Source: Xiashengella succiniciproducens | GTDB taxonomy: Bacteria; Bacteroidota; Bacteroidia; Bacteroidales; Marinilabiliaceae | Length of the DNA: 40,000 nt | Assembly: GCF_023674465.1 (NCBI RefSeq) | Contig: NZ_CP098400.1 | Location: 1,414,801 to 1,454,800, forward strand | Reading direction: 5' to 3' | Shown here: positions 1,231 through 38,241 of the stretch, piece after piece | Layout: every line of letters begins with the position of its first letter | How positions within the stretch are numbered: the first letter of the stretch is position 1 | Notes under the pieces: generated by a model | The model's database searches: none | What the model was told of the DNA's origin: nothing | Seen by the model: only the letters and a program-made list of their open reading frames with translations | Translations under genes and position numbers: made by a program

Positions 1231-1237
1231 AACCCAG

Positions 1238-1368
1238 CCGTTAACACGCGGTATAAAAAATTGCCGGGACAGTAGGTTTATCAAGGGTTGTAGCCCGCTC
1301 GAACTTTTGTGTAATTTGATAGGAGATTCGCCCGCAACCGGCAACATTTCATACCGCCACCGTTATGC
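1238..1368 (+). repeat. Integron attC site 2
   Basis: R'' CCGTTAAC (1238-1245) is the reverse complement of GTTAACGG at 528-535, the start of its own cassette. The arms ACGCGGTATAAAAAATTGCCGG and CCGGCAACATTTCATACCGCCACCG pair. R' GTTATGC lies at 1362-1368. Confidence 0.85.
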
Positions 1369-4135: not shown

Positions 4136-4270
4136 GGCGGCAACATCATGTATAAAATATTTGGGGGTTTAGTGGTTACTTGAAGCATTCTGCCCCGTAT
4201 TAGCTTTTGTAACGGCAGACAGTTGCGAAGCCCGCAAACCCCAAACATTTCATACATGTGCTCGTTGTGC
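4136..4270 (+). repeat. Integron attC site 4
   Basis: R'' GGCGGCAAC (4136-4144) matches the reverse complement of GTTACCGCC at 3059-3067 with one mismatch. R' GTTGTGC lies at 4264-4270. It belongs to the CAACATCATGTATAAAA... attC family together with attC11, 14, 15 and 22. Confidence 0.85.
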
Positions 4271-4291
4271 GTCATACAGAGAAAACCACAA

Positions 4292-4786
4292 ATGGAAAGA
4301 TTTGAGCTAAACAAATATGCTGTTGATGGAAGTCCTCTTATTATGATTTTCACTGAAGGTACTATCTTTGGGCCAAAACGTTTTATTGACTTTTTTAATG
4401 TGAAAAAATACGTGCCAATCAAAAATTGCATTGATAAGATTAAAAAATGGAATAGACAAGGAGCTCAAATCATTTACCTTACTTCGAGAAAAAGTGAAAC
4501 TTCAGCACAAACCATAAAAGATTTATTGATAAGATATAAATTTGTTGGTGCTTATTTATATTATAGGACTGGTTCAGATAAGTATAAAGATATTGTAGAA
4601 TCGCTCAAGCCAGATATATTAATTGAGGACAATTGCAGGAGTATAGGTGGTGCTTGGCAGATGTCAATAACATATGTAGACAAGAATATTAAAGAAAATA
4701 TTAAATCCATAATTATCAAAGAATTTAAGGGTATTGATTATTTACCTGATAATTTGATTGATTTGATGAAATATGAAATAAAATAA
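4292..4786 (+). CDS. Hypothetical protein, possibly a HAD-like hydrolase (copy 1 of a duplicated cassette)
   Basis: The ORF is taken from the ATG at 4292 (MERFELNKY...), because the upstream part of the 4223 ORF lies inside attC4. The product is identical to 37575-38069. The HAD-like call is only an impression from the IIYLTSR and ILIEDN segments. Confidence 0.55.
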   Translation: MERFELNKYAVDGSPLIMIFTEGTIFGPKRFIDFFNVKKYVPIKNCIDKIKKWNRQGAQIIYLTSRKSETSAQTIKDLLIRYKFVGAYLYYRTGSDKYKDIVESLKPDILIEDNCRSIGGAWQMSITYVDKNIKENIKSIIIKEFKGIDYLPDNLIDLMKYEIK

Positions 4787-4793
4787 TGTACGA

Positions 4794-4927
4794 ACGCACA
4801 ACAAATGGTATAGTGCATGCGGGTTTCAGCGGTTTGCGAGGGTTTGTGGCTCGTAAAAAAAGTCGGAGTAAACTGATAGGAAATTGCCTCGTAATCCCGC
4901 ACGACACCATACCATCAACCGTTATGC
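4794..4927 (+). repeat. Integron attC site 5
   Basis: R'' ACGCACAAC (4794-4802) is the reverse complement of GTTGTGCGT at 4264-4272. R' GTTATGC lies at 4921-4927. Confidence 0.85.
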
Positions 4928-4948
4928 TGCATTTTAAAAACAACACAT

Positions 4949-13514: not shown

Positions 13515-13596
13515 GTGGCATATATTAAAAAAATATCAAGAAGAATTTAGGATCACCAGTAAAAACCTGTGGAATTAAACTCTGTATCAAGCATTA

Positions 13597-14007
13597 TTGT
13601 ATTGTCTTTTCAACCTTGGCGTTGTAGCTTTAGTACCAACGAACAAGACCACTATGAATGCTTACATTGAATTAGCCAAGCTGATGCTCCCAGAGGAGAT
13701 CAGCAAATCGTTCAGTTTAGTGAAAGTCGAAGAGGAAAAGGTTGAGCAGGACAAACGTCTTCACCTCTATCTGGAAGAACTAAACATCCCTCCGGACCAT
13801 GTTGATGTGCTTAAGCCAAATGGTTTTTATCCTGAATCCTTAATGGGAGATTTTCCTATACGAGACAGGCAGGCAGTGCTTCACTTACGCCGACGGCGAT
13901 GGCTTGATGCTCGAGGCCAGAGCGTTTCACGAGATTGGAGCCTGATATGTAAGGGCACCCGCTACTCCAATGAGTTTGCGGCTTTTTTAAAAGAATTTGT
14001 TGGATAA
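13597..14007 (+). CDS. ISL3-family transposase, N-terminal ORF
   Basis: 136-aa ORF that overlaps the next ORF by 11 nt in a different frame. The same arrangement is present in both IS copies. Confidence 0.65.
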   Translation: MYCLFNLGVVALVPTNKTTMNAYIELAKLMLPEEISKSFSLVKVEEEKVEQDKRLHLYLEELNIPPDHVDVLKPNGFYPESLMGDFPIRDRQAVLHLRRRRWLDARGQSVSRDWSLICKGTRYSNEFAAFLKEFVG

Positions 14008-15055
14008 ACACCCCATAACAGGGCGATCTCTTGAGCGTTATTATCCTATACAGGGCGACCAATTTGAGCGGGCCTACAAAGAGCATTTAAGTGGTTTTTC
14101 TGAGTGGTCTGATGCTGAACATGCGCAATCATGGCTTCTATTTCCTGAGAATATGGGAGCCTCTCTCAGTATCGATGAAACATCACTTTCCAGAGGAGAG
14201 CTCTACACGATAATATCAAACAAGAGTGCTCGCGGGCGCAAAGGCACCATCGTTGCTATTGTTAAAGGAACGAAGATAAACGATGTTGTTAAAGTAGTAA
14301 AGACACTCCCGTTTGAAACGCGCCTGCTGGTTAAAGAGGTCACAATGGACTTTTCTGACAGCATGCATGCCATTGTAGAAAAGTGCTTTCCGGATGCCAT
14401 AATAACGCTGGATCGCTTTCATGTTCAGCAGTTATGTAATGAGGCTATGCAGGAGACCAGGCTGCAAATAAAGCGTGAGGCGCGCAAAATGGAAATTGAG
14501 AATCGAGAGCAGCACAAAATGAAGTTGCATCGGAGAATGGTCAGCAGAAAGAAAAATAAGGTTAGTAACCGTGGCAGGAAACCTAATCGCAAGAATGAAG
14601 CCTATAAACCCGAATACCTTGAAAATGGAGACACCTTATGTGAATTGGTTACACGCAGCAGATACCTTCTTATGACCTCTGCCGACAACTGGACCGAGAC
14701 TCAAAAGCTAAGAGCTGAGCTTCTATTTAAGTACTTTCCAAAACTGAGAACCGCCTATAGCCTGACACACTCCTTACGCATGATCTTTTCCAACAAGATG
14801 GCAACAAAGGAGTCGGCGGCAGAGGCACTAAAGAAGTGGTATAACAAAGTGACTGATTTTGAAAATGACGCATTCAATACGGTTTCAGCAACAATCTATC
14901 AAAGAGAAAAGGAGATCTTGAACTACTTTGTTAACCGGTCAACCAATGCATCAGCAGAATCCCTTAATGCGAAAATCAAACACTTTAGGACCCAACTTAG
15001 AGGAGTCATTGATGTTAACTTCTTTCTCTACAGGTTAACTCTAATTTATGCATGA
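13997..15055 (+). CDS. ISL3-family DDE transposase, catalytic ORF
   Basis: 352-aa ORF with SIDETSLSRGELYTII, VTMDFSDSM and ITLDRFHV, plus the C-terminal AESLNAKIKHFR segment typical of ISL3-type transposases. Confidence 0.75.
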   Translation: MLDKHPITGRSLERYYPIQGDQFERAYKEHLSGFSEWSDAEHAQSWLLFPENMGASLSIDETSLSRGELYTIISNKSARGRKGTIVAIVKGTKINDVVKVVKTLPFETRLLVKEVTMDFSDSMHAIVEKCFPDAIITLDRFHVQQLCNEAMQETRLQIKREARKMEIENREQHKMKLHRRMVSRKKNKVSNRGRKPNRKNEAYKPEYLENGDTLCELVTRSRYLLMTSADNWTETQKLRAELLFKYFPKLRTAYSLTHSLRMIFSNKMATKESAAEALKKWYNKVTDFENDAFNTVSATIYQREKEILNYFVNRSTNASAESLNAKIKHFRTQLRGVIDVNFFLYRLTLIYA

Positions 15056-15084
15056 GCTAAACACATGTTTTTGCGGGTGATCCA

Positions 15085-19415: not shown

Positions 19416-19790
19416 ATGAAAAAAACTCCTGATAGAAAATATAGACTTCAATCTGCAAAGGATTGGATAAAAATATATTCAGGGAATAATATTGTTAAGG
19501 GATATTCAAAAAAGTACTCCGTTGACAAAATTTGTGCAGTTAAAGAATTAAGATTGCTAGGATTTAAAATTTCGGATGAATATGAAAGACAGTTGCGTCA
19601 ATCTATGGAATCACTTAAACAGCAAAGACTTGCATTTAAGAAAAAGCGAGAGAATGAATTAAATGCCTTTTGTGAAATTGAAAGTGATGAGCATTTTGCA
19701 ATGATTATTGGGTATACAAGCGGAGGATATCCTTATGGAGTAACCCACGAAGAAATGGAACAAAAAGATATTGAAAAGGAATTTGACTAA
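19416..19790 (+). CDS. Hypothetical protein, first gene of a two-gene cassette
   Basis: 124-aa ORF whose stop lies 2 nt before the next start. No family recognised. Confidence 0.55.
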   Translation: MKKTPDRKYRLQSAKDWIKIYSGNNIVKGYSKKYSVDKICAVKELRLLGFKISDEYERQLRQSMESLKQQRLAFKKKRENELNAFCEIESDEHFAMIIGYTSGGYPYGVTHEEMEQKDIEKEFD

Positions 19791-19792
19791 TT

Positions 19793-20158
19793 ATGCCAGC
19801 AGGACAAGCACATACTACTTGGTTTCCAGAATTAAAGGATATTCTTAAGAATAAGTGGAATTCAAATTATTCCATTGAACAGCATTTTAGTTTAGTTACC
19901 GATTTGAATGAGAAATTACGCCAGATTCGGAAAGAATTGAACATTCAACCCCCTATGATGTGGTGTCCGAATTGCCAAAAACGACATCGCTCAAGATTTA
20001 ATGATGTTTCAATAACAGGAATGTATTATGCCCTTAAAAGATTTGAATATTGTGATACTGATGAATTTAATAAGTTGTTAAGAGATTGGAAACAATATTC
20101 AAAATCAGAAAATGTTGATATATATGGCAATAAAAAGACTGATAAAAGGGAATTGTAA
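19793..20158 (+). CDS. Hypothetical protein with a CPNC motif (copy B)
   Basis: 121-aa ORF identical to 11-376. Confidence 0.55.
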   Translation: MPAGQAHTTWFPELKDILKNKWNSNYSIEQHFSLVTDLNEKLRQIRKELNIQPPMMWCPNCQKRHRSRFNDVSITGMYYALKRFEYCDTDEFNKLLRDWKQYSKSENVDIYGNKKTDKREL

Positions 20159-20182
20159 AATGGAGATTAAAATAAAGTACGT

Positions 20183-20316
20183 CGGCACAACACGCGTTAT
20201 AGTGCATGGCTAAATCTCATATTTACTGCAAGTTTCATTCACCGTAGAGTATTCTTAACGGCCAGAAAATACATGCCAAGACGATTAGCCACGCACCATA
20301 TCGCCACACGTTGTAT
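20183..20316 (+). repeat. Integron attC site 13 (same attC as site 1)
   Basis: R'' CGGCACAAC (20183-20191) is the reverse complement of GTTGTGCCG at 19374-19382. R' GTTGTAT lies at 20310-20316. It matches attC1 up to the GTT and differs after it. Confidence 0.85.
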
Positions 20317-20361
20317 GCAAGTGTGAAAAAGACAACAAATGGCATTATACAAATATAAAGA

Positions 20362-21783: not shown

Positions 21784-22024
21784 TTTAGTATTTGATTGTT
21801 CTTACTTTGTTGATTGATAAGTAAAAGGGTTTAATTTAAAACTTGAAATAATAATCATTGAGGAATAAACACCAGCATACAACATCGTGTATAAAACATT
21901 TGGCAGTCAGTGGTTTATCAAGCGTTTCAGCTCGTATCAAAAGTAGTTGTAACTTGATAGAAAATCGCTTCGAAATGGGATCACCAGTAAAAACCTGTGG
22001 AATTAAACTCTGTATCAAGCATTA

Positions 22025-22435
22025 TTGTATTGTCTTTTCAACCTTGGCGTTGTAGCTTTAGTACCAACGAACAAGACCACTATGAATGCTTACATTGAAT
22101 TAGCCAAGCTGATGCTCCCAGAGGAGATCAGCAAATCGTTCAGTTTAGTGAAAGTCGAAGAGGAAAAGGTTGAGCAGGACAAACGTCTTCACCTCTATCT
22201 GGAAGAACTAAACATCCCTCCGGACCATGTTGATGTGCTTAAGCCAAATGGTTTTTATCCTGAATCCTTAATGGGAGATTTTCCTATACGAGACAGGCAG
22301 GCAGTGCTTCACTTACGCCGACGGCGATGGCTTGATGCTCGAGGCCAGAGCGTTTCACGAGATTGGAGCCTGATATGTAAGGGCACCCGCTACTCCAATG
22401 AGTTTGCGGCTTTTTTAAAAGAATTTGTTGGATAA
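22025..22435 (+). CDS. ISL3-family transposase, N-terminal ORF (copy 2)
   Basis: Identical product to 13597-14007. Confidence 0.65.
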   Translation: MYCLFNLGVVALVPTNKTTMNAYIELAKLMLPEEISKSFSLVKVEEEKVEQDKRLHLYLEELNIPPDHVDVLKPNGFYPESLMGDFPIRDRQAVLHLRRRRWLDARGQSVSRDWSLICKGTRYSNEFAAFLKEFVG

Positions 22436-23483
22436 ACACCCCATAACAGGGCGATCTCTTGAGCGTTATTATCCTATACAGGGCGACCAATTTGAGCGGG
22501 CCTACAAAGAGCATTTAAGTGGTTTTTCTGAGTGGTCTGATGCTGAACATGCGCAATCATGGCTTCTATTTCCTGAGAATATGGGAGCCTCTCTCAGTAT
22601 CGATGAAACATCACTTTCCAGAGGAGAGCTCTACACGATAATATCAAACAAGAGTGCTCGCGGGCGCAAAGGCACCATCGTTGCTATTGTTAAAGGAACG
22701 AAGATAAACGATGTTGTTAAAGTAGTAAAGACACTCCCGTTTGAAACGCGCCTGCTGGTTAAAGAGGTCACAATGGACTTTTCTGACAGCATGCATGCCA
22801 TTGTAGAAAAGTGCTTTCCGGATGCCATAATAACGCTGGATCGCTTTCATGTTCAGCAGTTATGTAATGAGGCTATGCAGGAGACCAGGCTGCAAATAAA
22901 GCGTGAGGCGCGCAAAATGGAAATTGAGAATCGAGAGCAGCACAAAATGAAGTTGCATCGGAGAATGGTCAGCAGAAAGAAAAATAAGGTTAGTAACCGT
23001 GGCAGGAAACCTAATCGCAAGAATGAAGCCTATAAACCCGAATACCTTGAAAATGGAGACACCTTATGTGAATTGGTTACACGCAGCAGATACCTTCTTA
23101 TGACCTCTGCCGACAACTGGACCGAGACTCAAAAGCTAAGAGCTGAGCTTCTATTTAAGTACTTTCCAAAACTGAGAACCGCCTATAGCCTGACACACTC
23201 CTTACGCATGATCTTTTCCAACAAGATGGCAACAAAGGAGTCGGCGGCAGAGGCACTAAAGAAGTGGTATAACAAAGTGACTGATTTTGAAAATGACGCA
23301 TTCAATACGGTTTCAGCAACAATCTATCAAAGAGAAAAGGAGATCTTGAACTACTTTGTTAACCGGTCAACCAATGCATCAGCAGAATCCCTTAATGCGA
23401 AAATCAAACACTTTAGGACCCAACTTAGAGGAGTCATTGATGTTAACTTCTTTCTCTACAGGTTAACTCTAATTTATGCATGA
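22425..23483 (+). CDS. ISL3-family DDE transposase, catalytic ORF (copy 2)
   Basis: Identical product to 13997-15055. Confidence 0.75.
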   Translation: MLDKHPITGRSLERYYPIQGDQFERAYKEHLSGFSEWSDAEHAQSWLLFPENMGASLSIDETSLSRGELYTIISNKSARGRKGTIVAIVKGTKINDVVKVVKTLPFETRLLVKEVTMDFSDSMHAIVEKCFPDAIITLDRFHVQQLCNEAMQETRLQIKREARKMEIENREQHKMKLHRRMVSRKKNKVSNRGRKPNRKNEAYKPEYLENGDTLCELVTRSRYLLMTSADNWTETQKLRAELLFKYFPKLRTAYSLTHSLRMIFSNKMATKESAAEALKKWYNKVTDFENDAFNTVSATIYQREKEILNYFVNRSTNASAESLNAKIKHFRTQLRGVIDVNFFLYRLTLIYA

Positions 23484-23616
23484 GCTAAACACATGTTTTT
23501 GCGGGTGATCCTCGAAATGCCAAACGTTTCATACACGTAAACGTTGCCAACAAGTTAAAAAGAGACAATCCCTTGTTTCCTGAGAAAGAAACTTTTATCT
23601 TTGAATAAAAAGCAAA

Positions 23617-23961: not shown

Positions 23962-24288
23962 ATGAAAAAGAAACCAATGAAAACAACCAGCCTTGATGTC
24001 CTGACCGACAAATATATTGGCAAAAAGGGAACCCCTAAACGAGAGAGCTTTGAAAATGAATTGAGACTTGATTTATTGGGAGAAGCAATCAAACAAGCAA
24101 GAAAAGAAAGGAACTTAACTCAAGAACAACTTGGAAAATTAATTGGTGTTCAGAAAGCACAGATTTCTAAAATTGAAAATAGTCTTACCGACGCCAGATT
24201 TGAGACCATTTTGAAAGTGTTTAAGGCGCTTAATGCAAAGATAAATTTTAACATCGAACTGCTTGACCAGAAAGTTAATATAGCCTAG
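23962..24288 (+). CDS. XRE-family HTH antitoxin
   Basis: 108-aa ORF with the HTH segment LTQEQLGKLIGVQKAQISKIENS. It starts 3 nt after the toxin stop. Confidence 0.75.
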   Translation: MKKKPMKTTSLDVLTDKYIGKKGTPKRESFENELRLDLLGEAIKQARKERNLTQEQLGKLIGVQKAQISKIENSLTDARFETILKVFKALNAKINFNIELLDQKVNIA

Positions 24289-25020
24289 ACGAAGAAACAT
24301 AACCTGTTGGCAACATCATGTATAAAATATTGGGGGTTTATGTGTGTATAGGCACTCCACTCCCCGTAGCAAATTTATTAACGGCAGACAGTGAGGACGC
24401 CCGCAATCCCCAACGTTTTATAGTGTGCCGAGAAGCAGAACATCGGCAAAATATTGTTCTGCATGCTGTAGTTAAGATGGTGGAAACAGTTGTAAGTTGA
24501 ACCACCGGTGTCGTCTTACAGGAGAGGGCATCAAACCACCTAAAGGTGCTGTGGTAAAGAGCTATGGTGCTGAGCGTTTAGGAAAAGGCTATCCATGAGA
24601 TAGTGCAGGTAAGGATATAGGAGCTGAACGAGAGTGAACCCTTGATGAGGAGTCGAGAAGTTGTACACCCAGTCAAAAGCTACAGGGCTGAGCGTTAAGA
24701 AACAGTCCAGTGGACTGTTTTAGTGAAGAGCCAGGTTGTGGGGCTGCAAACGGAGTTATAAGTATAGCGGGAGCCTGAATTATTGGCTATACGGCTGGCG
24801 TCTTTCAGAGGGCAGGAACTATATTCGGGCTTAATTACGGAACTCGGGAACCTTCATGGTAATGCCAAGGGATGAGCACAATGGGAACAACCCAGAGGCT
24901 CGAAACCGAAGTACCATGTAGGGGCGGATTGCCCCGTAGTAGCAAAGAAGCGATTGTAATGAGAGCAGAGCGAAGGGGGCAAGTTATACCGGATCATAAC
25001 ATTTAACAACTCGCAAGAGG

Positions 25021-26271
25021 ATGACTTTATGGAATGAGACAAAATCGGTACCAGTAAGTAAGGACCAAGTATGGCTTGCTTATAAGAAAGTGCGCTCCAA
25101 AGCAGGGAGTGCAGGAATTGACCAAATTAGTATGGAAGAATACAATGCCAACCGGTCTGGTCACCTGTACAAACTGTGGAACCGGATGGCGTCAGGGAGT
25201 TATTTCCCGCCGCCGTTAAAAGAAGTGGAAATACCCAAGAAAGACGGCAAATTTCGCAAACTTGGTGTTCCTACTATCAGCGATCGCGTGGCACAAATGG
25301 TCGTGAAAGATTATTTGGAAGAGAGGTTCGAGAAACTTTTCAGTCCCCATTCTTATGGTTACCGCCCCGGAAAGAATGCTCATCAGGCATTGGCCGAGGT
25401 ACGGAAGAATGTCAGAATTTCGGACTGGGTAATTGACCTTGATATCAAAGGATTCTTTGACAACATAGACCATGCGAAGTTGATGTTGGCATTAAAGAAA
25501 CATGTAAGCGAAAGGTGGTGCCTAATGTACATCGAAAGGTGGCTTCAAACACCCGTGCAAACTAAAACCGGGGAACTGGTAATGAAGCAAGGAAAAGGAA
25601 CGCCACAAGGAGGTGTAATTAGTCCGTTATTAGCAAATCTGTTCTTACATTATGCCATGGATAAATGGCTGGAGCAAACCCACCCTAGAGTCAGTTATGT
25701 GCGATACGCCGATGACGCAATACTGCACTGCAAGAGTAAATCACAAGCTGATTACGTAATGCGTAATTTGAACAAACGGATGAAGCAATGTGGGTTGGAA
25801 CTGCACCCGGAAAAGACGAAGCTTGTTTATTGTAGAGACTACAGGCGACAGGGAGCGTTTGAGAACGTGAAGTTCGATTTTCTGAGCTATTCATTCCAAC
25901 CTCGCACCGCAAGGTCAAAGAAGACCAGGGAACTTTTCCTTGGCTATGACTGCGCCATCAGCACGAGTTCAAAGAAACGCATAGCAGAGAAGATGAGAGA
26001 GTTGAAGGTTGAGACCCTGACACATAACAGCATAGTAGGAGTGGCGCAATTTCTGGAGCCTTATATCCGGGGTTGGATCAACTACTATGGAAAGTTCAGA
26101 ATATGGGAAATGAACCCAATCTTTCAGCTATTACGGCGGAGGCTTGTGATGTGGGCACGGAAACGGTACAAGCGCTACAAAACGACTATCAACGGCACTT
26201 ATGCATGGTTGGAAAGAGTGAAAGAGCAATATCCGACACTGTTCTACCAATGGAGTCTGGGATTTTCGTAA
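25021..26271 (+). CDS. Group II intron reverse transcriptase/maturase (no endonuclease domain)
   Basis: 416-aa ORF with RT blocks (IPKKDGKFRKLGVPTISDRV, GTPQGGVISPLLANLFL, YVRYADDAILHC) and a maturase X region (RGWINYYGKF). The short C-terminus has no HNH domain. Confidence 0.9.
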   Translation: MTLWNETKSVPVSKDQVWLAYKKVRSKAGSAGIDQISMEEYNANRSGHLYKLWNRMASGSYFPPPLKEVEIPKKDGKFRKLGVPTISDRVAQMVVKDYLEERFEKLFSPHSYGYRPGKNAHQALAEVRKNVRISDWVIDLDIKGFFDNIDHAKLMLALKKHVSERWCLMYIERWLQTPVQTKTGELVMKQGKGTPQGGVISPLLANLFLHYAMDKWLEQTHPRVSYVRYADDAILHCKSKSQADYVMRNLNKRMKQCGLELHPEKTKLVYCRDYRRQGAFENVKFDFLSYSFQPRTARSKKTRELFLGYDCAISTSSKKRIAEKMRELKVETLTHNSIVGVAQFLEPYIRGWINYYGKFRIWEMNPIFQLLRRRLVMWARKRYKRYKTTINGTYAWLERVKEQYPTLFYQWSLGFS

Positions 26272-26296
26272 TGAAGTGCATCGATTTGTATAACAA

Positions 26297-26330
26297 GAGC
26301 CGGATGAGCTGAGAGGTTCAAGTCCGGTTC
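26297..26330 (+). ncRNA. Group II intron domain V (catalytic hairpin)
   Basis: GAGCCGGATGAGCTGAGAGGTTCAAGTCCGGTTC is 34 nt long. It has the AGC triad and a GAGCCGGA / TCCGGTTC helix with one G-U pair. Confidence 0.85.
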
Positions 26331-26419
26331 TGTGAGAGGCTTAGGAGGAAGTTCCCTTTGCCTACTCGACCCGCCACCGTTGTGTTGCATATTAAAAGAC
26401 AGATTGCTACAATGAAAAT

Positions 26420-27100
26420 ATGTTGAAAAATTACTATCAAATACTCGGATTATCGCCAGATTGCAACAAGGATGATATTAAGAAAGCATATAGAATATAT
26501 GCGACCAAATTTCATCCTGACAAGCAGAATAATGACAAATTTTTTGAAGAGAGATTCAAAGAGATAAAAGAGGCTTACGACATTTTAATTGATGATAGTA
26601 AAAGAGCACAATTTGATTCTCAATACAAAACATCAAATTATTCATCTTCTAATTTCAATCAATATAGAAATAAAAGCTCTTCGGTTGATGATTTACTAAG
26701 TGAACTAGAAAGAAAGGATAGAGAAAAAAAACAAAAAGAAAGGAATAAACGAAAAAAAGTCTTTTACACTAGTAAGGATTTAGTTTTAAATGGATTATAT
26801 GTAAATTGTGACGGTCGCAGTTACGAACTAACTGATTATGATAAATCAACAATAAGAAAAGATGATAACTCTAGTTTTGTATTTATCGGTATCGTTATGA
26901 TTATAATTGGGATAATTACAATTGCTTTCTTTATAGGTATATTTTTACTATTGTTTGGTATATATGCACTATTTTTTCGTGAATATTATGTTGTTCTAAT
27001 TGGTAAACAAGGAGATATACCATTGATTAAAGGGCGCAAGGCAAAAATGAGAAAGATTTCAAGACTTATTAATAGAGCGATTGAAGAGAATGATAAATGA
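26420..27100 (+). CDS. J-domain (DnaJ-like) protein with a C-terminal membrane anchor
   Basis: 226-aa ORF with YYQILGL...KKAYRIYATKFHPDK (HPD motif), a KE-rich linker and two hydrophobic helices (FVFIGIVMIIIGIITIAFFIGIFLLLFGIYALFF). Confidence 0.8.
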   Translation: MLKNYYQILGLSPDCNKDDIKKAYRIYATKFHPDKQNNDKFFEERFKEIKEAYDILIDDSKRAQFDSQYKTSNYSSSNFNQYRNKSSSVDDLLSELERKDREKKQKERNKRKKVFYTSKDLVLNGLYVNCDGRSYELTDYDKSTIRKDDNSSFVFIGIVMIIIGIITIAFFIGIFLLLFGIYALFFREYYVVLIGKQGDIPLIKGRKAKMRKISRLINRAIEENDK

Positions 27101-30990: not shown

Positions 30991-31626
30991 ATGTGGATTG
31001 ATGACCAACAAGTCCTTGCAGCGAAATTGGACTATGTGAGTGGAATTGCTGTATTTGATGAGATACTTGATGGAAAGACGCTCAAGGAAATAGATGCAGT
31101 AATTCATCTTGAAAAATATCCGAAAGGACTTCTTTTCAAAATAGCGAGGGGTTTTGGTGGAATAATAACACATCCATTTCCAGTTGCGAAAAATGAAATC
31201 AAACAAGTCGTACTTGCTGAGTCAACTGAAAGTAGTGGAAAATTGACATTTGACTTGACTGATGGGAATAAAATTGAGTTCGATATTAAGAAAGGAAAAC
31301 TTTGGGAAGTTAAGGACTTTTTTAAAGAGATTAAACTCAATTACGAAATAGAGAAAACTAAGAAACCAGTTATACCAACAGAAAAGAAGCCTGTAAGCAC
31401 ACAAAAACATGGTGTTCCTACTTTGATTTCATTTTTTGTGCCAGGCGTAGGACAACTAATCAAAGGACATATAATGAAAGCTATTGGAATTTGGGTAATT
31501 GGCGGACTTGTTGGATTTTTCCTCTGGTGGACATTTATAGCACCATTCATTGTATGGGTTTGGAATGTATATGATGCCTATAATTCTAATGCGGACTGGG
31601 GCGCTGGTGATGCTCGGGCATCTTGA
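30991..31626 (+). CDS. Hypothetical membrane-anchored protein; the 3' end runs into a G+C-rich insertion
   Basis: 211-aa ORF with a soluble N-domain and two C-terminal TM helices (TM2-like). The last 12 or so codons (...NADWGAGDARAS) lie beyond the composition shift at about 31591. Confidence 0.6.
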   Translation: MWIDDQQVLAAKLDYVSGIAVFDEILDGKTLKEIDAVIHLEKYPKGLLFKIARGFGGIITHPFPVAKNEIKQVVLAESTESSGKLTFDLTDGNKIEFDIKKGKLWEVKDFFKEIKLNYEIEKTKKPVIPTEKKPVSTQKHGVPTLISFFVPGVGQLIKGHIMKAIGIWVIGGLVGFFLWWTFIAPFIVWVWNVYDAYNSNADWGAGDARAS

Positions 31627-34200
31627 TTGTGAGTGGCTTGACTTTTTTGTCGGGATGGGTTATATTGGGGCTTATTGCTTTAATAACCTTTACTCTGCCC
31701 TGCTGATGGCTCGTTTATTTGTCTTTCCTGTTTTGCATAAGGGGTGTCGTCGCCTCGCTTTGAAGCCGGATGCTTATTTGCCGGATTCTGATTTTAATGT
31801 TATTACGCGTGGTTTGCCTGGGCGTGCCTATAGTAAATCTTTGAGGTGTTGGCATGTGCCGTTTCGGGAGAATTACCGCCATTGGCTGAGTGAGGTGTAT
31901 GAACGGGCTGCTGATTTGGAACTTGTTTTTGGGGATGGGGGAAAGGTGGCTGAACGGGATGATAAACCGGAAAAAGCTATGGATGCAGATGTACATTCAC
32001 TTGTGGAAAGTCCAACTGAAATTAGGGTTGCGGATGATGTTTCCGTTGCTTCAGAGCTGCTTGCGAGGGTGCTGGTGGATAAGGTGAATAAGAGGTTTTA
32101 TGTTGAGCACAGTTATCATTCTGCTGTTTTTAACTCTTTGGCTCGTTTAAATGTAGGGACCTATGTGTCGACCGACCGTCGTTGGGTTTTTCCGGGCGAT
32201 AATGTGATTTATTTGCAGGTGCTGGATGTTTTGAAGGGGTTTGGCTTTAAACCACGGGTGCTTACGTTGGAGAAATCTGCTGAGCCAGCTGCTCTCCCGG
32301 CTGGTTTTGAGCTGCCAGTCAGGCGGTTTGATGAGGCGATGTTGTTGCGTCGTTTGAGCTTTCGAACGCAGGAAATTTACAAGAGTTGTTTTCTTCTTTT
32401 TTTGAAGGATCATCAGGGCAGGATTGTTGATGAGTTGACTTACAGTGAATTGTATGGCTATTTGAAGCGGCAGTCTGTTCTGCTGTCTTCAACGCAGCTT
32501 AAGCAAATGATTGCTGCGGTAAAGTTTTATTATGAGCGGACGCTGGGCAGGGACAAGATGTTTTTTCCGCTGGCGGAAAAAACGGAGGTGCGAAAATCTA
32601 CGCTCTTCCTTCCGTATGCCGAAATTCGCTCTTTGCTGGATGGAATTGCTTCGCCCGGCGATAGGATGTTGCTCTTCCTGGTGTATCATGCCAATCTGCC
32701 CTTAAACCAAATTTGTGCTTTGCCGAAGGATGCGGAGAACCTTTTTGAGGAGGACTGCCGTATGCCGGGGAATAATGAGTTGGCCTTGGCTTATTATGCC
32801 GATTTGGTTGCGGAGTTGAAACGGACTTATGACCTGGCGACTTTTTTGTTGGAGGACAAGGGGGTGCCTTATTCTGTGGAGTCGTTAAAGGGGAAGTTGT
32901 ACCGGATTTTGGGGCATTATCGCTTGGAGGAAATTTATCGGAAGCAATATGAGGTAATTTTGAAGCAGAGTAGCTTGAGCTCGAAGACGCAGGTGATGTA
33001 CCTGGGTGCTTTTATGCGGTTTTTGGATTATTACAATTATAAGCACCCGGCTTTTATTAAGGACGATGAGGTGCGTGATTACCTGTTGTTGCACCGGGGG
33101 AAGTCGAGTGCTCACCAGGACAACCTGGTGAGCAGTTTTAAGTTCTTTTTTGAACGCATCCATAATCATACGCTTTCGGACAAGCATGTGGTGCGTCCCC
33201 GAAAGGGTTTTTATCTGCCCGACTTTTTTTCTCTGTCGGAGATTTCGGCCATGCTTAACACGACCGACAATTTAAAGCATAAGCTGCTGATTGCCATCGG
33301 TTACACCGCTGGTTTGCGCCGTTCTGAAATACGTAATTTGCGCTTATGTGATGTGGATTTGAAGCGCAATTTGCTGTTTATTAAGGATTCGAAGGGTAAA
33401 CGCGACCGCTATACTTTGTTTTCGCAGCACTTGCATGAATGGCTCAAATCTTATTTGAATCAGGCAAAGCCCAAAGTTTTTCTTTTTGAGGGCCCTAGTC
33501 CCGGTACGCAATACAGTACCACCAGTATGGCGGTAATTTTAAAGAAGATGGCCAAGGCTGCCGGCATTAAACGAAAGGTGCATATGCATATGCTGCGACA
33601 TAGTTTTGCTACGCATTTATTGGAAGAAGGTCGCGATGTCAGGTACGTGCAGGAGCTGCTTGGACATAAAAGCATCAAAACCACGGAGCGTTATACGCAT
33701 GTAGTAAGTGATGCGCTGCTTAATGTAGCCAGTCCCTTCGACCGTATGGTTGCCCAAACAGGTTTTGCTGGTAAAAAGCCCCACAGCCCACCTTAATGCG
33801 CATAGCTTTTTTTGCCTTCTCCTTTGTAGGTTGCATTCGGTTTGCCACCTACCCGATGTTGTTCTTTCTGCTTCAATAGCCTGAAGGGAGTAGTTTGTGC
33901 TATGCAATTTTTCGCTTTACTGGTCGATTATTTGACTTTTTGTTGCGCTAATTGCTCCTATTATATGCCGATGTCTTGCCTTTGTGTGTTGTATTGTGCT
34001 GTTGTTTATTGATTTGAGTGTTTAGTAAGAGTCATTAATTTAATATTGCAAATGTTAATAATTTTTGCAATTATTGTATGGTGATTTACACCGACCTAAT
34101 TCCTTAACCTGGCCGCAATGTGACTGAGGAAGACGAAGTCGTGCCAAGATTCAGTGTTTTGAACTTGCAACTCGTTTGTTTTGCACTTTAAGCTCTCTTT
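31591..34200 (+). mobile_element. G+C-rich inserted island carrying a long tyrosine recombinase (boundaries approximate, right end uncertain)
   Basis: Composition shifts sharply at about 31590. The host cassette has lost its expected R'' box (GTGTGGTAAC is absent). The palindrome ATTGCAAA...TTTGCAAT lies at 34045-34071. Confidence 0.5.
31706..33796 (+). CDS. Long tyrosine recombinase/integrase (about 696 aa) with an N-terminal domain, two SAM-like core-binding segments and a catalytic domain
   Basis: The start is taken at the Met at 31706, because the 31550 start overlaps the previous gene. The N-terminus VFPVLHKGCRRLALKP...LRCWHVPF resembles Bacteroidota integrase N-domains. The catalytic domain has AGLRRSEIRNL, KGKRDR, HMLRHSFATHLL and LLGHKSIKTTERYTHV. 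Confidence 0.75.
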   Translation: MARLFVFPVLHKGCRRLALKPDAYLPDSDFNVITRGLPGRAYSKSLRCWHVPFRENYRHWLSEVYERAADLELVFGDGGKVAERDDKPEKAMDADVHSLVESPTEIRVADDVSVASELLARVLVDKVNKRFYVEHSYHSAVFNSLARLNVGTYVSTDRRWVFPGDNVIYLQVLDVLKGFGFKPRVLTLEKSAEPAALPAGFELPVRRFDEAMLLRRLSFRTQEIYKSCFLLFLKDHQGRIVDELTYSELYGYLKRQSVLLSSTQLKQMIAAVKFYYERTLGRDKMFFPLAEKTEVRKSTLFLPYAEIRSLLDGIASPGDRMLLFLVYHANLPLNQICALPKDAENLFEEDCRMPGNNELALAYYADLVAELKRTYDLATFLLEDKGVPYSVESLKGKLYRILGHYRLEEIYRKQYEVILKQSSLSSKTQVMYLGAFMRFLDYYNYKHPAFIKDDEVRDYLLLHRGKSSAHQDNLVSSFKFFFERIHNHTLSDKHVVRPRKGFYLPDFFSLSEISAMLNTTDNLKHKLLIAIGYTAGLRRSEIRNLRLCDVDLKRNLLFIKDSKGKRDRYTLFSQHLHEWLKSYLNQAKPKVFLFEGPSPGTQYSTTSMAVILKKMAKAAGIKRKVHMHMLRHSFATHLLEEGRDVRYVQELLGHKSIKTTERYTHVVSDALLNVASPFDRMVAQTGFAGKKPHSPP

Positions 34201-36186: not shown

Positions 36187-37407
36187 ATGAAACAGATTTT
36201 AATAATGGGATTGATATTCATATCCCAGCTTGGATTTTCACAGATAAAGGAATTAAATCCGACATCAACAAGACAATTAGATTTGAGTGTTGCAGGGGAA
36301 AAAGAATTCAATGACAATCTTGAAGCCTGCAAAAAGATTTGGGATAAAATGTCAAATGGTGTAAAATATGACGATTTATCACAGCAAGAAAAAGACGCTC
36401 TTTCTAAAGTTGATGAAACTATGGAAGACTACTGGGATATTATCGGAGGAGGTTGCAGTTGGTATTGTGGAGGAGGCCCGAAAGAGGTTACTGCATCTAG
36501 TTATTTAAAATCACAAGGAGAAAATAATTACGAACCTAAAAATGCACATGATTTAAACTATAAAAATGTTTGGGTTGAGGGTGTTGACGGTTATGGTATT
36601 GGAGAATACCTTTTATATACATTTAGCGGAACTTCCCCAAGAATAAATGAAATAATTGTTGTAAATGGATATGTAAAAAGTAAAACGGCTTGGGAGAACA
36701 ACTCACGAGTTAAAAAACTGAAAGTTTACATTGATGACAAACCATATGCAATACTGAACCTTAAAGATATTCGAGGTTCACAGAGTTTTAAGATTGAGCC
36801 AATAGGGAATAGCGACAGAAAGAATTGGGATATGCTTAAAACAAAACCTGATTGGACTTTGAAATTTGAAATACTGGATGTTTACAAAGGACTAAAATAT
36901 GATGACGTTGTAATTTCAGAAATCTATTTTGACGGACTTGATGTTCATTGTTTTGCAAAAGGCACAGAAATCAAATTAGCCGATAACACCATCAAAAGCA
37001 TTGAAGACTTACAAGTCGGTGATTTGGTTGCTTACATGGATTTTGATACTAAAACTATAAAATCTGCCAAAATTGAGAAAACGGAAAAAGTAATACATCA
37101 TGGACTTGTAACTTACCGATTTGAAAGCGGATTGACAATAACTTCAACTCAAGACCATCCTTTCAAAATTGACAATAAAGGTTGGGCTTCCCTAAAGCCT
37201 GATAAATCAAATCAATACAAAGGATTTGAAAACATTGACAAAATAAAAATTGGTGACTTCTTTATAGCAGAAAACGGAACAGAAAAACTGGTTTCGATTG
37301 ACTATTTAGAAGGAGAACAAGAAACTTGGACGATTTCAAAACTAAGTTCAGGTGATAATTTTATAGCAAACGGACTTATTGTTGGGGTCGAAGAATTAAA
37401 CGATTGA
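36187..37407 (+). CDS. Secreted protein with a glycan-binding-like (discoidin/NADase-type) domain and a C-terminal Hint (bacterial intein-like) domain
   Basis: 406-aa ORF with a signal peptide. It has a central YLLYTFSG...VVNGYVKS...VKKLKVYIDD segment. The Hint domain starts at HCFAKGTEIKLADNT, has a TSTQDHPF block and ends ...FIANGLIVGVEELND. Confidence 0.65.
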   Translation: MKQILIMGLIFISQLGFSQIKELNPTSTRQLDLSVAGEKEFNDNLEACKKIWDKMSNGVKYDDLSQQEKDALSKVDETMEDYWDIIGGGCSWYCGGGPKEVTASSYLKSQGENNYEPKNAHDLNYKNVWVEGVDGYGIGEYLLYTFSGTSPRINEIIVVNGYVKSKTAWENNSRVKKLKVYIDDKPYAILNLKDIRGSQSFKIEPIGNSDRKNWDMLKTKPDWTLKFEILDVYKGLKYDDVVISEIYFDGLDVHCFAKGTEIKLADNTIKSIEDLQVGDLVAYMDFDTKTIKSAKIEKTEKVIHHGLVTYRFESGLTITSTQDHPFKIDNKGWASLKPDKSNQYKGFENIDKIKIGDFFIAENGTEKLVSIDYLEGEQETWTISKLSSGDNFIANGLIVGVEELND

Positions 37408-37416
37408 ACTATAAAC

Positions 37417-37553
37417 GGTTGGCAACATCATGTATAAAATATTGGGGGTTTATGTGTGTATAGGCAACTCCACTCCCCGTAGCAAATTAATTAACGGCAG
37501 ACAATAACGTCGCTCGCAAGCCCCCAACAATTTCATACATGTGACCGTTGTGC
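37417..37553 (+). repeat. Integron attC site 22
   Basis: R'' GGTTGGCAAC (37417-37426) is the reverse complement of GTTGCCAACC at 36152-36161. R' GTTGTGC lies at 37547-37553. It is the intact paralog of the intron-split attC15. Confidence 0.85.
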
Positions 37554-37574
37554 GTCATACAGAGAAAACCACAA

Positions 37575-38069
37575 ATGGAAAGATTTGAGCTAAACAAATA
37601 TGCTGTTGATGGAAGTCCTCTTATTATGATTTTCACTGAAGGTACTATCTTTGGGCCAAAACGTTTTATTGACTTTTTTAATGTGAAAAAATACGTGCCA
37701 ATCAAAAATTGCATTGATAAGATTAAAAAATGGAATAGACAAGGAGCTCAAATCATTTACCTTACTTCGAGAAAAAGTGAAACTTCAGCACAAACCATAA
37801 AAGATTTATTGATAAGATATAAATTTGTTGGTGCTTATTTATATTATAGGACTGGTTCAGATAAGTATAAAGATATTGTAGAATCGCTCAAGCCAGATAT
37901 ATTAATTGAGGACAATTGCAGGAGTATAGGTGGTGCTTGGCAGATGTCAATAACATATGTAGACAAGAATATTAAAGAAAATATTAAATCCATAATTATC
38001 AAAGAATTTAAGGGTATTGATTATTTACCTGATAATTTGATTGATTTGATGAAATATGAAATAAAATAA
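37575..38069 (+). CDS. Hypothetical protein, possibly a HAD-like hydrolase (copy 2)
   Basis: Identical product to 4292-4786. Confidence 0.55.
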   Translation: MERFELNKYAVDGSPLIMIFTEGTIFGPKRFIDFFNVKKYVPIKNCIDKIKKWNRQGAQIIYLTSRKSETSAQTIKDLLIRYKFVGAYLYYRTGSDKYKDIVESLKPDILIEDNCRSIGGAWQMSITYVDKNIKENIKSIIIKEFKGIDYLPDNLIDLMKYEIK

Positions 38070-38076
38070 TGTACGA

Positions 38077-38210
38077 ACGCACAACAAATGGTATAGTGCA
38101 TGCGGGTTTCAGCGGTTTGCGAGGGTTTGTGGCTCGTAAAAAAAGTCGGAGTAAACTGATAGGAAATTGCCTCGTAATCCCGCACGACACCATACCATCA
38201 ACCGTTAGGC
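38077..38210 (+). repeat. Integron attC site 23 (same attC as site 5)
   Basis: R'' ACGCACAAC (38077-38085) is the reverse complement of GTTGTGCGT at 37547-37555. R' GTTAGGC lies at 38204-38210. Confidence 0.85.
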
Positions 38211-38241
38211 AACATTAAAAAAGACACTGCGGAATGACTTG

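What the first reader, a model, noticed from the sequence alone, without database searches (positions are those of the whole stretch)
24306..26385. A group II intron lies inside an attC site in the same orientation as the cassettes
A class-C-like intron splits attC15, 14 bp upstream of the G|TT crossover. It has a GTGTG 5' end at 24423, an En-less RT/maturase, a canonical 34-nt domain V at 26297-26330, and an inferred 3' end at 26365. The two attC flanks sum to 137 bp, and the intact paralog attC22 shows what the uninterrupted site looks like. Group IIC-attC introns are a known subclass. As I recall, the described ones sit antisense to cassette transcription, on the recombinogenic bottom strand. 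Here the intron is on the sense (top) strand, so it could be transcribed and spliced from cassette read-through RNA. The position also leaves the crossover point intact while disrupting the L' arm.
Basis: partly seen in the sequence, partly recalled or inferred. Interest (0 to 1): 0.65.

Follow-up and report, generated by a model that had tools for sequence, protein, structure and literature searches.

The report
RmInt1-type intron homing into attC
A complete self-splicing mobile intron sits inside a gene-cassette recombination site in the same direction as the genes; it is not the textbook attC-targeting (class C) type but an RmInt1-like (class D) lineage that finds these sites by RNA-DNA base pairing.

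Summary
The intron is real and complete: window 24423-26370, + strand, with an intact 416-aa RT/maturase that lacks an endonuclease domain. It splits an attC site on the cassette-sense (top) strand.

Three details in the finding are wrong:
- The 3' end is 26370, not 26365.
- The insertion lies 9 nt, not 14 nt, before the G|TT crossover.
- The intron is not class-C-like.

The protein is 44% identical and colinear with RmInt1 (class D/IIB3), against 30% for solved IIC reverse transcriptases. In trees it sits in a fully supported clade that contains RmInt1 and excludes the IIC proteins. The RNA matches the same Rfam D1-D4 family as RmInt1. It also has an EBS2 as well as an EBS1, which IIC introns lack.

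About 30 relatives (65-99% protein identity) come from Bacteroidota, several other phyla and metagenomes. All sit at the same attC position (...CAAC-N-TTTYATA | N7-9 GTTRRRY), mostly co-oriented with the flanking genes. Their EBS1 and EBS2 covary with their exons, and the clade is monophyletic.

So this is sequence-guided retrohoming into the conserved L' arm of attC. Here that strand is the lagging-strand template, which RmInt1 prefers.

Sense-strand attC introns have a few precedents in print. Earlier notes of this scan report them on other DNA (23 notes, at least 21 genomes), mostly as other lineages.

The parts
24306..24422 (+). 5' part of the split attC (R'' GTTGGCAAC, L'' arm, central region, L' arm up to ...CCCCAACGTTTTATA)
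   Evidence: Sequence. It is 93% identical over its first 61 nt to the intact attC at 37406-37466. The L' arm matches an upstream complementary arm 14/17 at about -104.
24411..24414 (+). IBS2 (CAAC, exon positions -12 to -9)
   Evidence: Pairs with EBS2 GUUG at 24660-24663. The geometry equals RmInt1's IBS2 at -13..-9 (PMC3123198). It covaries across relatives.
24416..24422 (+). IBS1 (TTTTATA, exon positions -7 to -1)
   Evidence: Relatives carry TTTCATA, AACATA, AACTTA, CAGGTA and the like, each matched by its own EBS1.
24423..26370 (+). complete group II intron, 1948 nt, class D/IIB3-like (RmInt1 type)
   Evidence: Rfam hits, boundaries from relatives and from an intact attC, single copy in the genome.
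24492..24610 (+). domain I core matching Rfam group-II-D1D4-2
   Evidence: 95 bits. RmInt1 matches the same family at 118 bits. All 80 genome relatives match it too.
24660..24663 (+). EBS2 (GUUG, directly after GAGAA)
   Evidence: Position is homologous to the covarying EBS2 of relatives: GUUGG/CCAAC, GUUGCC/GGCAAC, GUAG/CUAC, GUGCG/CGCAC.
24685..24736 (+). extra ~50-nt segment with its own hairpin, replacing the first part of the ancestral EBS1 loop
   Evidence: Absent from near-identical introns L178 and L179, which have the loop GAGUAUGAAA. Present in L183/L184 and in L172 at other attC sites. Fold.
24737..24743 (+). probable EBS1 of this variant (UGUGGGG)
   Evidence: Pairs 7/7 with exon UUUUAUA here (5 G.U pairs) and with UUUCAUA in L172 and L183. 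Tentative, because there is no covariation within this sub-lineage.
25021..26271 (+). intron-encoded protein, 416 aa, RT + maturase (X), YADD present, no endonuclease domain
   Evidence: Pfam RVT_1 1.4e-42 and GIIM 2.8e-12. 44% identity over 400 aa with 2 gaps to the RmInt1 IEP. 30% identity to GsI-IIC and E.r. IIC RTs.
26297..26330 (+). domain V, 34 nt, AGC triad
   Evidence: Rfam Intron_gpII alignment.
26333..26370 (+). domain VI with bulged branch A at 26364, and the 3' splice site
   Evidence: Rfam alignment. The same ...CCTACTCGAC end occurs in relatives.
26371..26385 (+). 3' part of the split attC: spacer CCGCCACC plus the R' core GTTGTGT (crossover G|TT at 26379|26380)
   Evidence: Same spacing as the intact attC at 1231-1365. 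Relatives have 7-9 nt before GTT.
37418..37553 (+). intact paralogous attC (uninterrupted homing-site type)

Best explanation
This is a full-length, probably functional group II intron of the RmInt1 type (IEP class D, ribozyme IIB3-like). It belongs to a monophyletic sub-lineage whose natural homing site is the 3' side of integron-type attC sites.

How it most likely works:
- The intron RNA-protein particle recognises the top-strand sequence of the attC L' arm by base pairing. EBS2 pairs with (C/G)CAAC at -13..-9, and EBS1 pairs with TTTYATA at -7..-1.
- It reverse-splices between L' and R', 7-9 nt before the G|TT crossover.
- Because the protein has no endonuclease, cDNA synthesis is presumably primed by nascent lagging-strand DNA at a replication fork, as shown for RmInt1.
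- In this genome the occupied strand is the lagging-strand template.
- The insertion lies in the sense direction of the cassettes, so it can be transcribed with them. It separates R' from the rest of attC15, which should disable that site for integrase recombination.

Shown here: anatomy and boundaries, class placement, a lineage-wide identical insertion position and orientation, EBS/IBS covariation, and replichore orientation.
Inferred: splicing, the priming pathway, and the effect on recombination.
For: Intron anatomy.

Class placement:
- 44% identity, 2 gaps over 400 aa, 369 bits to the IEP of an RmInt1 copy.
- That copy was identified by its S. meliloti host and its 5' exon TTCATCGATGAAA|, against the published UUCAU-C-GAUGAGA, with C+1 and G+4 (PMC3123198).
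- RmInt1 is class D/IIB3 (PMC5894124).
- Identity to the IIC RTs is only 30%.
- In trees, win plus relatives plus RmInt1 form one clade with 100 SH-like/SH-aLRT support. The IIC RTs (6ar1, 7uim) fall outside it and group with a D1D4-3-type intron.
- RmInt1 and this intron hit the same Rfam D1-D4 family.

Target recognition:
- EBS1/IBS1 pairs: cognate mean 5.6 of 7 against 3.8 non-cognate; 0 of 10,000 permutations reach the observed value.
- EBS2/IBS2 pairs: 4.1 of 5 against 3.3; 1 of 10,000 permutations (examples).

Lineage behaviour:
- About 30 insertions all sit at ...YATA|N7-9 GTT of attC-like sites.
- Flanking ORFs are mostly co-oriented.
- The attC-sense clade is monophyletic with 99-100 support.

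Strand:
- Top strand shown by cassette duplicates ending at G|TT.
- Cumulative GC skew has its minimum near 0/3.09 Mb and its maximum at 1.71 Mb. The + strand at 1.44 Mb is therefore the lagging-strand template.
- RmInt1 is biased toward that template (PMC5894124).
Against: - Only RmInt1 (D), two IIC, one IIA and some unlabelled intron IEPs served as references. Classes A, B, E, F, g1-g6 and the IIC-attC clade were not available as labelled sequences.
- The window's copy has lost the canonical EBS1 (UAUG... replaced by an inserted hairpin). Its proposed EBS1, UGUGGGG, relies on five G.U pairs and is not supported by covariation.
- No EBS3/IBS3 covariation was found.
- The genome holds at least 14 unoccupied candidate sites but only one intron copy. 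The copy may therefore be poorly mobile here, or recently arrived.
- The bottom-strand L'' complement of this attC offers an almost equally good IBS1, so base pairing alone does not fully explain the strand choice.
- The replication-strand argument rests on one genome.
- No RNA data were available.
Confidence: 0.8

Rival explanations
1. It is a class C (IIC) intron, a member or sister of the IIC-attC lineage. It would recognise the attC hairpin as a structure plus a short IBS1, and merely sit on the other strand.
For: - The best PDB sequence matches are the three IIC RTs (2.5e-44 to 1.8e-42), ahead of LtrA and TeI4h.
- The protein is endonuclease-less and about 416 aa.
- The insertion lies just 3' of a long hairpin arm.
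- Some more distant relatives lie behind terminator-like hairpins.
Against: - The PDB holds no class D protein, so that ranking is uninformative.
- With RmInt1 added, identity is 44-50% to RmInt1 against 30% to the IIC RTs. The IIC RTs fall outside the 100%-supported clade.
- EBS2-IBS2 pairing exists and covaries.
- The RNA D1-D4 family equals RmInt1's. The intron whose IEP groups with GsI-IIC has a different family, D1D4-3.
Confidence: 0.05
2. The intron is an RmInt1-type element but a dead or immobile copy. The ~50-nt insertion destroyed EBS1, so it neither splices efficiently nor moves. Its position only records the habit of its ancestors.
For: - Near-identical introns L178 and L179 keep the canonical loop GAGUAUGAAA, while the window's copy lacks UAUG.
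- There is a single copy in a genome with at least 14 free candidate sites.
- The closest genomic relative, in Geofilum rhodophaeum, is a 5'-truncated fragment.
Against: - The same loop variant occurs at other attC sites with different exons: L183/L184, and L172 at only 90% nucleotide identity. The variant therefore spread after acquiring the insertion.
- UGUGGGG can pair 7/7 with all three exons.
- The ORF is intact with YADD, and DV/DVI are canonical.
Confidence: 0.15
3. The strand and orientation bias is set only by sequence: top-strand L' carries the better IBS2/IBS1 match. Replication or single-strandedness plays no part.
For: In array 1 the strict motif CAAC-N1-2-TTTYATA occurs 9 times on the + strand and 2 times on the - strand.
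Against: - For this very attC the bottom-strand equivalent reads CCAAT-A-TTTTATA|C, nearly as good (sequence).
- RmInt1-type introns are known to prefer the lagging-strand template.
- The occupied array is the one whose top strand is that template. The second array, in the opposite replication orientation, has 7 candidate sites and no intron.
Confidence: 0.3

Closest known systems
RmInt1 of Sinorhizobium meliloti (IEP class D, ribozyme IIB3)
   Same: - Endonuclease-less IEP of about 416-419 aa, 44% identical and colinear to the C-terminal tail.
- Same Rfam D1-D4 family.
- Same EBS2/linker/EBS1 geometry, -13..-9 and -7..-1.
- Same clade in the tree.
- The occupied strand is the lagging-strand template.
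   Different: RmInt1 homes into an IS630-family transposase gene (ISRm2011-2), whereas this lineage homes into the L'-R' junction of attC sites. The hosts are Bacteroidota and other phyla rather than rhizobia. This copy has a remodelled EBS1 loop.
Group IIC-attC introns (S.ma.I2, E.c.I7, Kl.pn.I1, Ge.s.I1 and others)
   Same: A monophyletic intron lineage specialised on attC sites of cassette arrays. The insertion lies between an L box and an R box, 3' of the hairpin as seen from the intron.
   Different: The published introns are class C. They insert in the bottom strand, antisense to the cassettes, near the 5' end of attC (PMC3001079). This intron is class D-like, has an EBS2, lies in the top strand in the sense direction near the 3' end of attC, and falls outside the IIC RT clade. 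No labelled IIC-attC IEP could be fetched for a direct comparison.
The 'unusual' group IIC intron of an Enterobacter cloacae integron (Rodriguez-Martinez et al. 2012, as described in PMC7923331)
   Same: [quoted passage not shown]
   Different: It is reported as IIC (not IIC-attC) and as a single case. The paper is not held in the library, so its sequence and exact site could not be compared.
Group IIB introns in cassette arrays of halophiles (UHB.I2, H.ha.F1/F2; Sonbol and Siam 2021, PMC7923331)
   Same: Non-IIC, endonuclease-less introns co-oriented with the cassettes and next to attC or attC-like hairpins. Toxin-antitoxin cassettes are nearby, as they are here.
   Different: Those are CL1 and class E by their authors' trees. 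UHB.I2 lies just after an attC and lacks convincing exon conservation, and H.ha.F1/F2 are 5'-truncated. No lineage-wide site or EBS/IBS covariation was shown for them.

Membership tests
Group II intron (bacterial, ORF-containing) | 5' GUGYG, domain V of 34 nt with a catalytic triad, domain VI with a bulged A near the 3' end | tested here: met
   GUGUG at 24423. DV 26297-26330 with AGC. Bulged A at 26364, 6 nt before the last base. Rfam RF00029 63 bits and RF01999 95 bits.
Group II intron (bacterial, ORF-containing) | RT + maturase (X) protein encoded in domain IV | tested here: met
   RVT_1 1.4e-42 and GIIM 2.8e-12; YADD present.
Group II intron (bacterial, ORF-containing) | EBS1-IBS1 pairing at the 5' junction | tested here: met
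   Covariation in 19 relatives, with 0 of 10,000 permutations reaching the observed value. In the window's own copy only a G.U-rich pairing, UGUGGGG/UUUUAUA, is found.
Class C / IIC introns, including the IIC-attC subclass | IEP inside the class C clade | tested here: not met
   30% identity to GsI-IIC and E.r. IIC RTs. Both lie outside the 100%-supported clade that holds this IEP.
Class C / IIC introns, including the IIC-attC subclass | No EBS2-IBS2; 5' exon recognised by a hairpin plus a short IBS1 | tested here: not met
   An EBS2 after GAGAA pairs with exon -13..-9 and covaries.
Class C / IIC introns, including the IIC-attC subclass | IIC-attC: insertion in the attC bottom strand, antisense to cassettes, near the 5' end of attC | tested here: not met
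   Top strand, sense, 9 nt before G|TT at the 3' end. Published rule in PMC3001079.
Class D / IIB3 introns (RmInt1 type) | IEP clusters with RmInt1 and lacks D/En domains | tested here: met
   44% identity, 2 gaps over 400 aa. RmInt1 nests within the same 100%-supported clade. No endonuclease domain.
Class D / IIB3 introns (RmInt1 type) | IIB-type exon recognition: IBS2 (-13..-9), one-nt linker, IBS1 (-7..-1) | tested here: met
   Same geometry as published for RmInt1. Found here and in relatives.
Class D / IIB3 introns (RmInt1 type) | Ribozyme domain I-IV architecture like RmInt1 | tested here: met
   Both match Rfam RF01999 over the full model, at 95 and 118 bits. A full IIB3 secondary-structure comparison was not done.
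Class D / IIB3 introns (RmInt1 type) | EBS3-IBS3 pair in the coordination loop | tested here: inconclusive
   No alignment column covaries with exon +1; the best column reaches 56%.
Class D / IIB3 introns (RmInt1 type) | Placement within class D against the curated reference set (classes A-F, g1-g6, CL, ML) | not testable with these tools
   Labelled reference IEPs other than the PDB chains and RmInt1 could not be fetched.
Integron-type attC site / cassette array | Imperfect palindrome R''-L''...L'-R', with cassette boundaries at G|TT | tested here: met
   Repeat families appear between + strand ORFs. Two duplicated cassettes lose identity exactly after ...CGTT. The L''/L' arms are complementary.
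Integron-type attC site / cassette array | Integron integrase (IntI) in the genome | tested here: not met
   TIGR02249 best score is 91 bits against a cut-off of 265. Matches skip the IntI-specific middle part. The array therefore behaves as a CALIN.

The most novel reading that the evidence does not exclude
A whole clade of class D (RmInt1-type, IIB) introns has adopted the conserved L'-R' junction of attC sites as its homing site. It uses the top strand because that strand is the exposed lagging-strand template in these arrays. This would be a mirror image, evolved independently, of the class C IIC-attC introns. Being sense-oriented, these introns could be spliced out of cassette transcripts. 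Their reverse transcriptase would then act on cassette RNA in cis, which makes the old idea that intron RTs help to create cassettes (gene + attC) directly testable.
Probability: 0.35. Interest if true: 0.7.

Novelty: new variant of a known kind. Interest (0 to 1): 0.55.

Why it matters
Textbook knowledge links integrons with one intron lineage only: IIC-attC, antisense, on the bottom strand. This finding shows that a second, unrelated intron class uses attC sites as a regular homing site. It does so with a different recognition mode (EBS1 + EBS2 base pairing) and on the opposite strand.

This has three consequences:
- Introns in cassette arrays should not be annotated as IIC by default.
- There are now natural, sequence-defined targets for testing how strand exposure at attC sites (top versus bottom, leading versus lagging) governs invasion.
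- Such insertions weld neighbouring cassettes together by splitting R' from the attC.

The scan's earlier notes suggest that several further lineages do something similar at the R' core. The phenomenon may therefore be general, although it is almost absent from the literature I could search.

Tried and rejected
- Class C assignment from PDB ranking alone. Rejected once RmInt1 was added.
- Reading the key IIC-attC and E. cloacae papers (PMC2747902, PMC3256610, PMC2714756). They are not held, so I relied on PMC3001079 and PMC7923331.
- Fetching a labelled IIC-attC intron from plasmids. Four plasmid hits were inspected and none was in an integron. Accession EU116440 is not in the collection.
- Matching the S. 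meliloti 'class C' accession WP_015243078.1 through cluster members. It was not listed.
- Extrahelical-base logic to decide top versus bottom strand. It was inconclusive by eye, so I used duplicated-cassette boundaries instead.
- EBS3 search by covariation with exon +1. No signal.
- Treating UUAUAAG (24756-24762) as EBS1. Rejected because it is conserved in relatives whose exons differ.
- My regex-based boundary calls for distant relatives were noisy. Only junctions confirmed by conserved intron ends were used.
Full report
WHAT IS THERE

The window is a long array of + strand ORFs separated by ~130-bp imperfect palindromes of the attC type. Between the HTH antitoxin-like gene (23962-24288) and a DnaJ-domain gene (26420-27100) lies a group II intron. 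Rfam finds group-II-D1D4-2 at 24492-24610 (95 bits) and Intron_gpII (domains V-VI) at 26295-26370 (63 bits), both on the + strand. The ORF at 25021-26271 (416 aa) has RVT_1 and GIIM domains and no endonuclease domain. The 5' end is GUGUG at 24423. The intron is single-copy in a 3.10-Mb one-contig genome.

BOUNDARIES

The evidence for 26370:
- The covariance-model alignment ends at 26370 (...CCUACUCGAC), which puts the bulged branch A at 26364.
- Nearly every relative ends CTACTCGA(C/T).
- Rejoining the flanks at 24422|26371 gives ...CCCCAACGTTTTATA|CCGCCACCGTTGTGT. This has the same spacing as an intact attC in the window (1231-1365...CAACATTTCATACCGCCACCGTTATG).

The insertion therefore lies 9 nt before the G|TT crossover (26379|26380), and the rejoined attC is 132 bp. 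The intact paralog at 37418-37553 is 136 bp. The intron sits one base pair from the end of the L''/L' helix, so it separates the R' core from the rest of the site.

WHICH STRAND

The R boxes look alike on both strands, so I used the duplicated cassettes in the window.
- Copies at 1-576 and 19783-20361 are identical through ...GCCACACGTT and then diverge.
- Copies at 4223-4948 and 37548-38230 become identical just before CGTTGTGCG and diverge again after ...CAACCGTTA.

Each attC therefore travels with the ORF upstream of it, and the crossover is at the 3' end on the + strand. That makes the + strand the top strand.

Published IIC-attC introns are in the bottom strand, antisense, near the 5' end of attC (PMC3001079).

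No integron integrase passes the TIGR02249 cut-off anywhere in the genome, so the array is formally a cluster of attC sites without an integrase (CALIN).

CLASS

The PDB ranking put the IIC RTs first (7uim 2.5e-44, 6ar1 1.2e-43, against LtrA 7.7e-33 and TeI4h 1.4e-31). This looked like support for class C, but the PDB holds no class D protein.

I found an RmInt1 copy on an S. meliloti plasmid (CP140952.1). It was identified by:
- its 5' exon TTCATCGATGAAA|, against the published IBS2-linker-IBS1 UUCAU-C-GAUGAGA;
- C at +1 and G at +4 (PMC3123198);
- its position inside an IS630-type 'LIFIDET' reading frame;
- a 419-aa IEP. A length of 1884 nt fits what I recall for RmInt1 (own knowledge).

RmInt1 is class D/IIB3 (PMC5894124).

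Comparisons:
- The window's IEP is 44% identical to it over 400 residues with only 2 gaps, colinear to the C-terminal tail (369 bits).
- It is 30% identical, with many gaps, to GsI-IIC and the E. rectale IIC RT.
- In a FastTree of 160 IEPs and an IQ-TREE (LG+C20, PMSF) of 65, the window's IEP, its 147 relatives and RmInt1 form one clade with 100% support on a long stem.
- The two IIC RTs fall outside that clade and group with a host intron of another Rfam D1-D4 type, D1D4-3.
- RmInt1 matches the same Rfam family as this intron (RF01999, 118 bits).

TARGET RECOGNITION

Aligning domain I of the relatives shows a hairpin right after GUCAAAAG. Its loop (NNN + 7 nt) is complementary to the last 4-7 exon nucleotides and changes with them:

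| EBS1 | exon |
|---|---|
| UAUGAAA | UUUCAUA |
| UAUGUU | AACAUA |
| UAAGUU | AACUUA |
| UGCCUG | CAGGUA |
| GUAUGA | UCAUAC |
| CUUCGC | GCGAAG |

A second site directly after GAGAA pairs with exon -13..-9 and also changes with it: GUUGG/CCAAC, GUUGCC/GGCAAC, GUAG/CUAC, GUGCG/CGCAC.

With fixed registers in 19 introns:
- EBS1: cognate pairs average 5.6 of 7 against 3.8 for non-cognate; 0 of 10,000 permutations reach the observed value.
- EBS2: 4.1 of 5 against 3.3; 1 of 10,000 permutations.
- Relatedness inflates such tests, but the compensatory examples are explicit.

This is IIB-type recognition with the same geometry as RmInt1. It is not the IIC mode, which lacks EBS2.

In the window, IBS2 is CAAC (24411-24414) and pairs with GUUG (24660-24663).

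The canonical EBS1 is not there. Near-identical introns from metagenomes (L178, L179) have CUACG-GAG-UAUGAAA-CGGAG. The window's copy has about 50 extra nucleotides with their own hairpin (24685-24736) in place of GAGUAUG. The same variant occurs at other attC sites with different exons: L183/L184, and L172 at 90% nucleotide identity. It has therefore spread since acquiring the insertion. It contains UGUGGGG (24737-24743), which can pair 7/7 with UUUUAUA or UUUCAUA through G.U pairs. I take that as the working EBS1, marked as inferred. No EBS3 column could be found.

LINEAGE BEHAVIOUR

Protein-guided searches of genome and metagenome collections, plus exact-protein look-ups, gave about 30 insertions with 65-99% IEP identity. 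The named genome hits come from Marinilabiliaceae, Prolixibacteraceae, Flavobacteriaceae, Cloacimonadota, Marinimicrobia and a cyanobacterial MAG; the rest are unnamed metagenome contigs.
- All are at the same place...(C/G)CAAC-N-TTTYATA | N7-9 GTTRRRY, with a complementary arm about 104 nt upstream in many.
- Flanking ORFs are overwhelmingly on the intron's strand.
- These IEPs form one clade with 99-100% support.
- Their nearest outgroups (50-59% identity) lie behind other hairpins or repeats. The wider RmInt1-containing clade homes into coding sequences.

REPLICATION STRAND

Cumulative GC skew has its minimum at about 0/3.09 Mb and its maximum at 1.71 Mb. At 1.44 Mb the + strand is therefore the lagging-strand template. 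RmInt1, which also lacks an endonuclease, reverse-splices preferentially into that template and uses lagging-strand primers (PMC5894124).

The genome has a second array at 2.25-2.30 Mb, also on the + strand but in the other replichore. It has 7 strict candidate sites and no intron. This fits the model but is only one genome. For this attC, the bottom-strand complement of L'' (CCAAT-A-TTTTATA|C) is almost as good a pairing partner, so something beyond pairing probably sets the strand.

CONSEQUENCES (INFERRED)

- The intron can be transcribed with the cassettes.
- R' is now 1.95 kb from L', so attC15 should not fold into a recombination substrate. The toxin-antitoxin cassette upstream and the DnaJ-domain cassette downstream are effectively welded together.

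COMPARISON WITH WHAT IS KNOWN

- Closest by mechanism and descent: RmInt1.
- Closest by ecological niche: the IIC-attC introns, which differ in class, strand, position and recognition.
- Precedents in print for sense-oriented introns at attC: one E. cloacae IIC intron, and IIB introns of CL1 and class E type in halophile arrays (PMC7923331).
- Four full-text searches found no description of a class D lineage homing into attC.
- Earlier notes of this scan report sense-strand attC introns on other DNA (23 notes, at least 21 genomes). Those shown are assigned to CL1-, class E- or class C-like lineages, and most place the intron at the R' or GTT core. At least two first-reader notes appear to describe this same lineage elsewhere. 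I did not test those notes.

VERDICT

Noticed in passing
L032, L033, L052, L062, L065, L074, L106, L171 (relatives at 45-50% IEP identity): Many RmInt1-clade relatives are twintrons. They are inserted exactly after the YADD codons of the RT gene of another group II intron, of Rfam types D1D4-6 or -4. Joining the flanks restores open RT frames reading ...RYADD|F/I/Y.... In L171 two identical copies sit in tandem in one host intron.
   Followed up: partly
L064, L082, L144, L149, L164: Another sub-lineage has 5' exons ending ...AA(G/A)T(T/A)CGC(C/A)GA(T/C)CA(C/T)N or ...AAGT(A/T)TCTGGATCATC. These look like the K(Y/F)ADH motif region of IS66-family transposase genes and suggest a further site-specific homing habit.
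   Followed up: no
L018:604-4355: Two related introns (IEPs 56% and 66% identical to the window's) lie head to tail at a single attC, with no exon base between them. The upstream one matches the exon through its EBS1. The downstream one does not match the end of the first intron, so the upstream copy probably invaded the same junction later.
   Followed up: partly
L007:2516-4121 (Geofilum rhodophaeum contig): The closest genomic relative (99% IEP identity) is 5'-truncated. Only the last ~60 nt before the ORF, the ORF itself and DV-DVI remain, placed after an intact attC and followed by TACGTGACCGTTATG.
   Followed up: partly
window 31550-33796; genome C1:2252833-2254257: Two unusually long tyrosine recombinases (748 and 700 aa) give the best, sub-threshold, matches to the integron-integrase model. 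Both lack its middle segment. Each lies in or beside one of the two cassette arrays, and no canonical IntI exists in the genome.
   Followed up: no
genome C1: 1.40-1.50 Mb and 2.25-2.30 Mb: There are two attC arrays, both with the top strand on the + strand but in opposite replichores. Their orientation relative to replication therefore differs, and only the first carries the intron.
   Followed up: partly
window 24685-24736 versus 24564-24610: The extra segment in the EBS1 loop begins GGGCTGAGCGTTAAGAAA + hairpin. This resembles the intron's own D1 motif GGTGCTGAGCGTTTAGGAAAA + hairpin, as if part of domain I had been copied into the loop.
   Followed up: no
window 13550-15083 and 21978-23511: Two identical ISL3-family copies are present, and the second one splits another attC (...TCGCTTCGAAATGGG | IS | ...TCGAAATGCCAAACGTTTCATACACGTAAACGTTGCC). 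Two different mobile elements have therefore disabled neighbouring attC sites.
   Followed up: no
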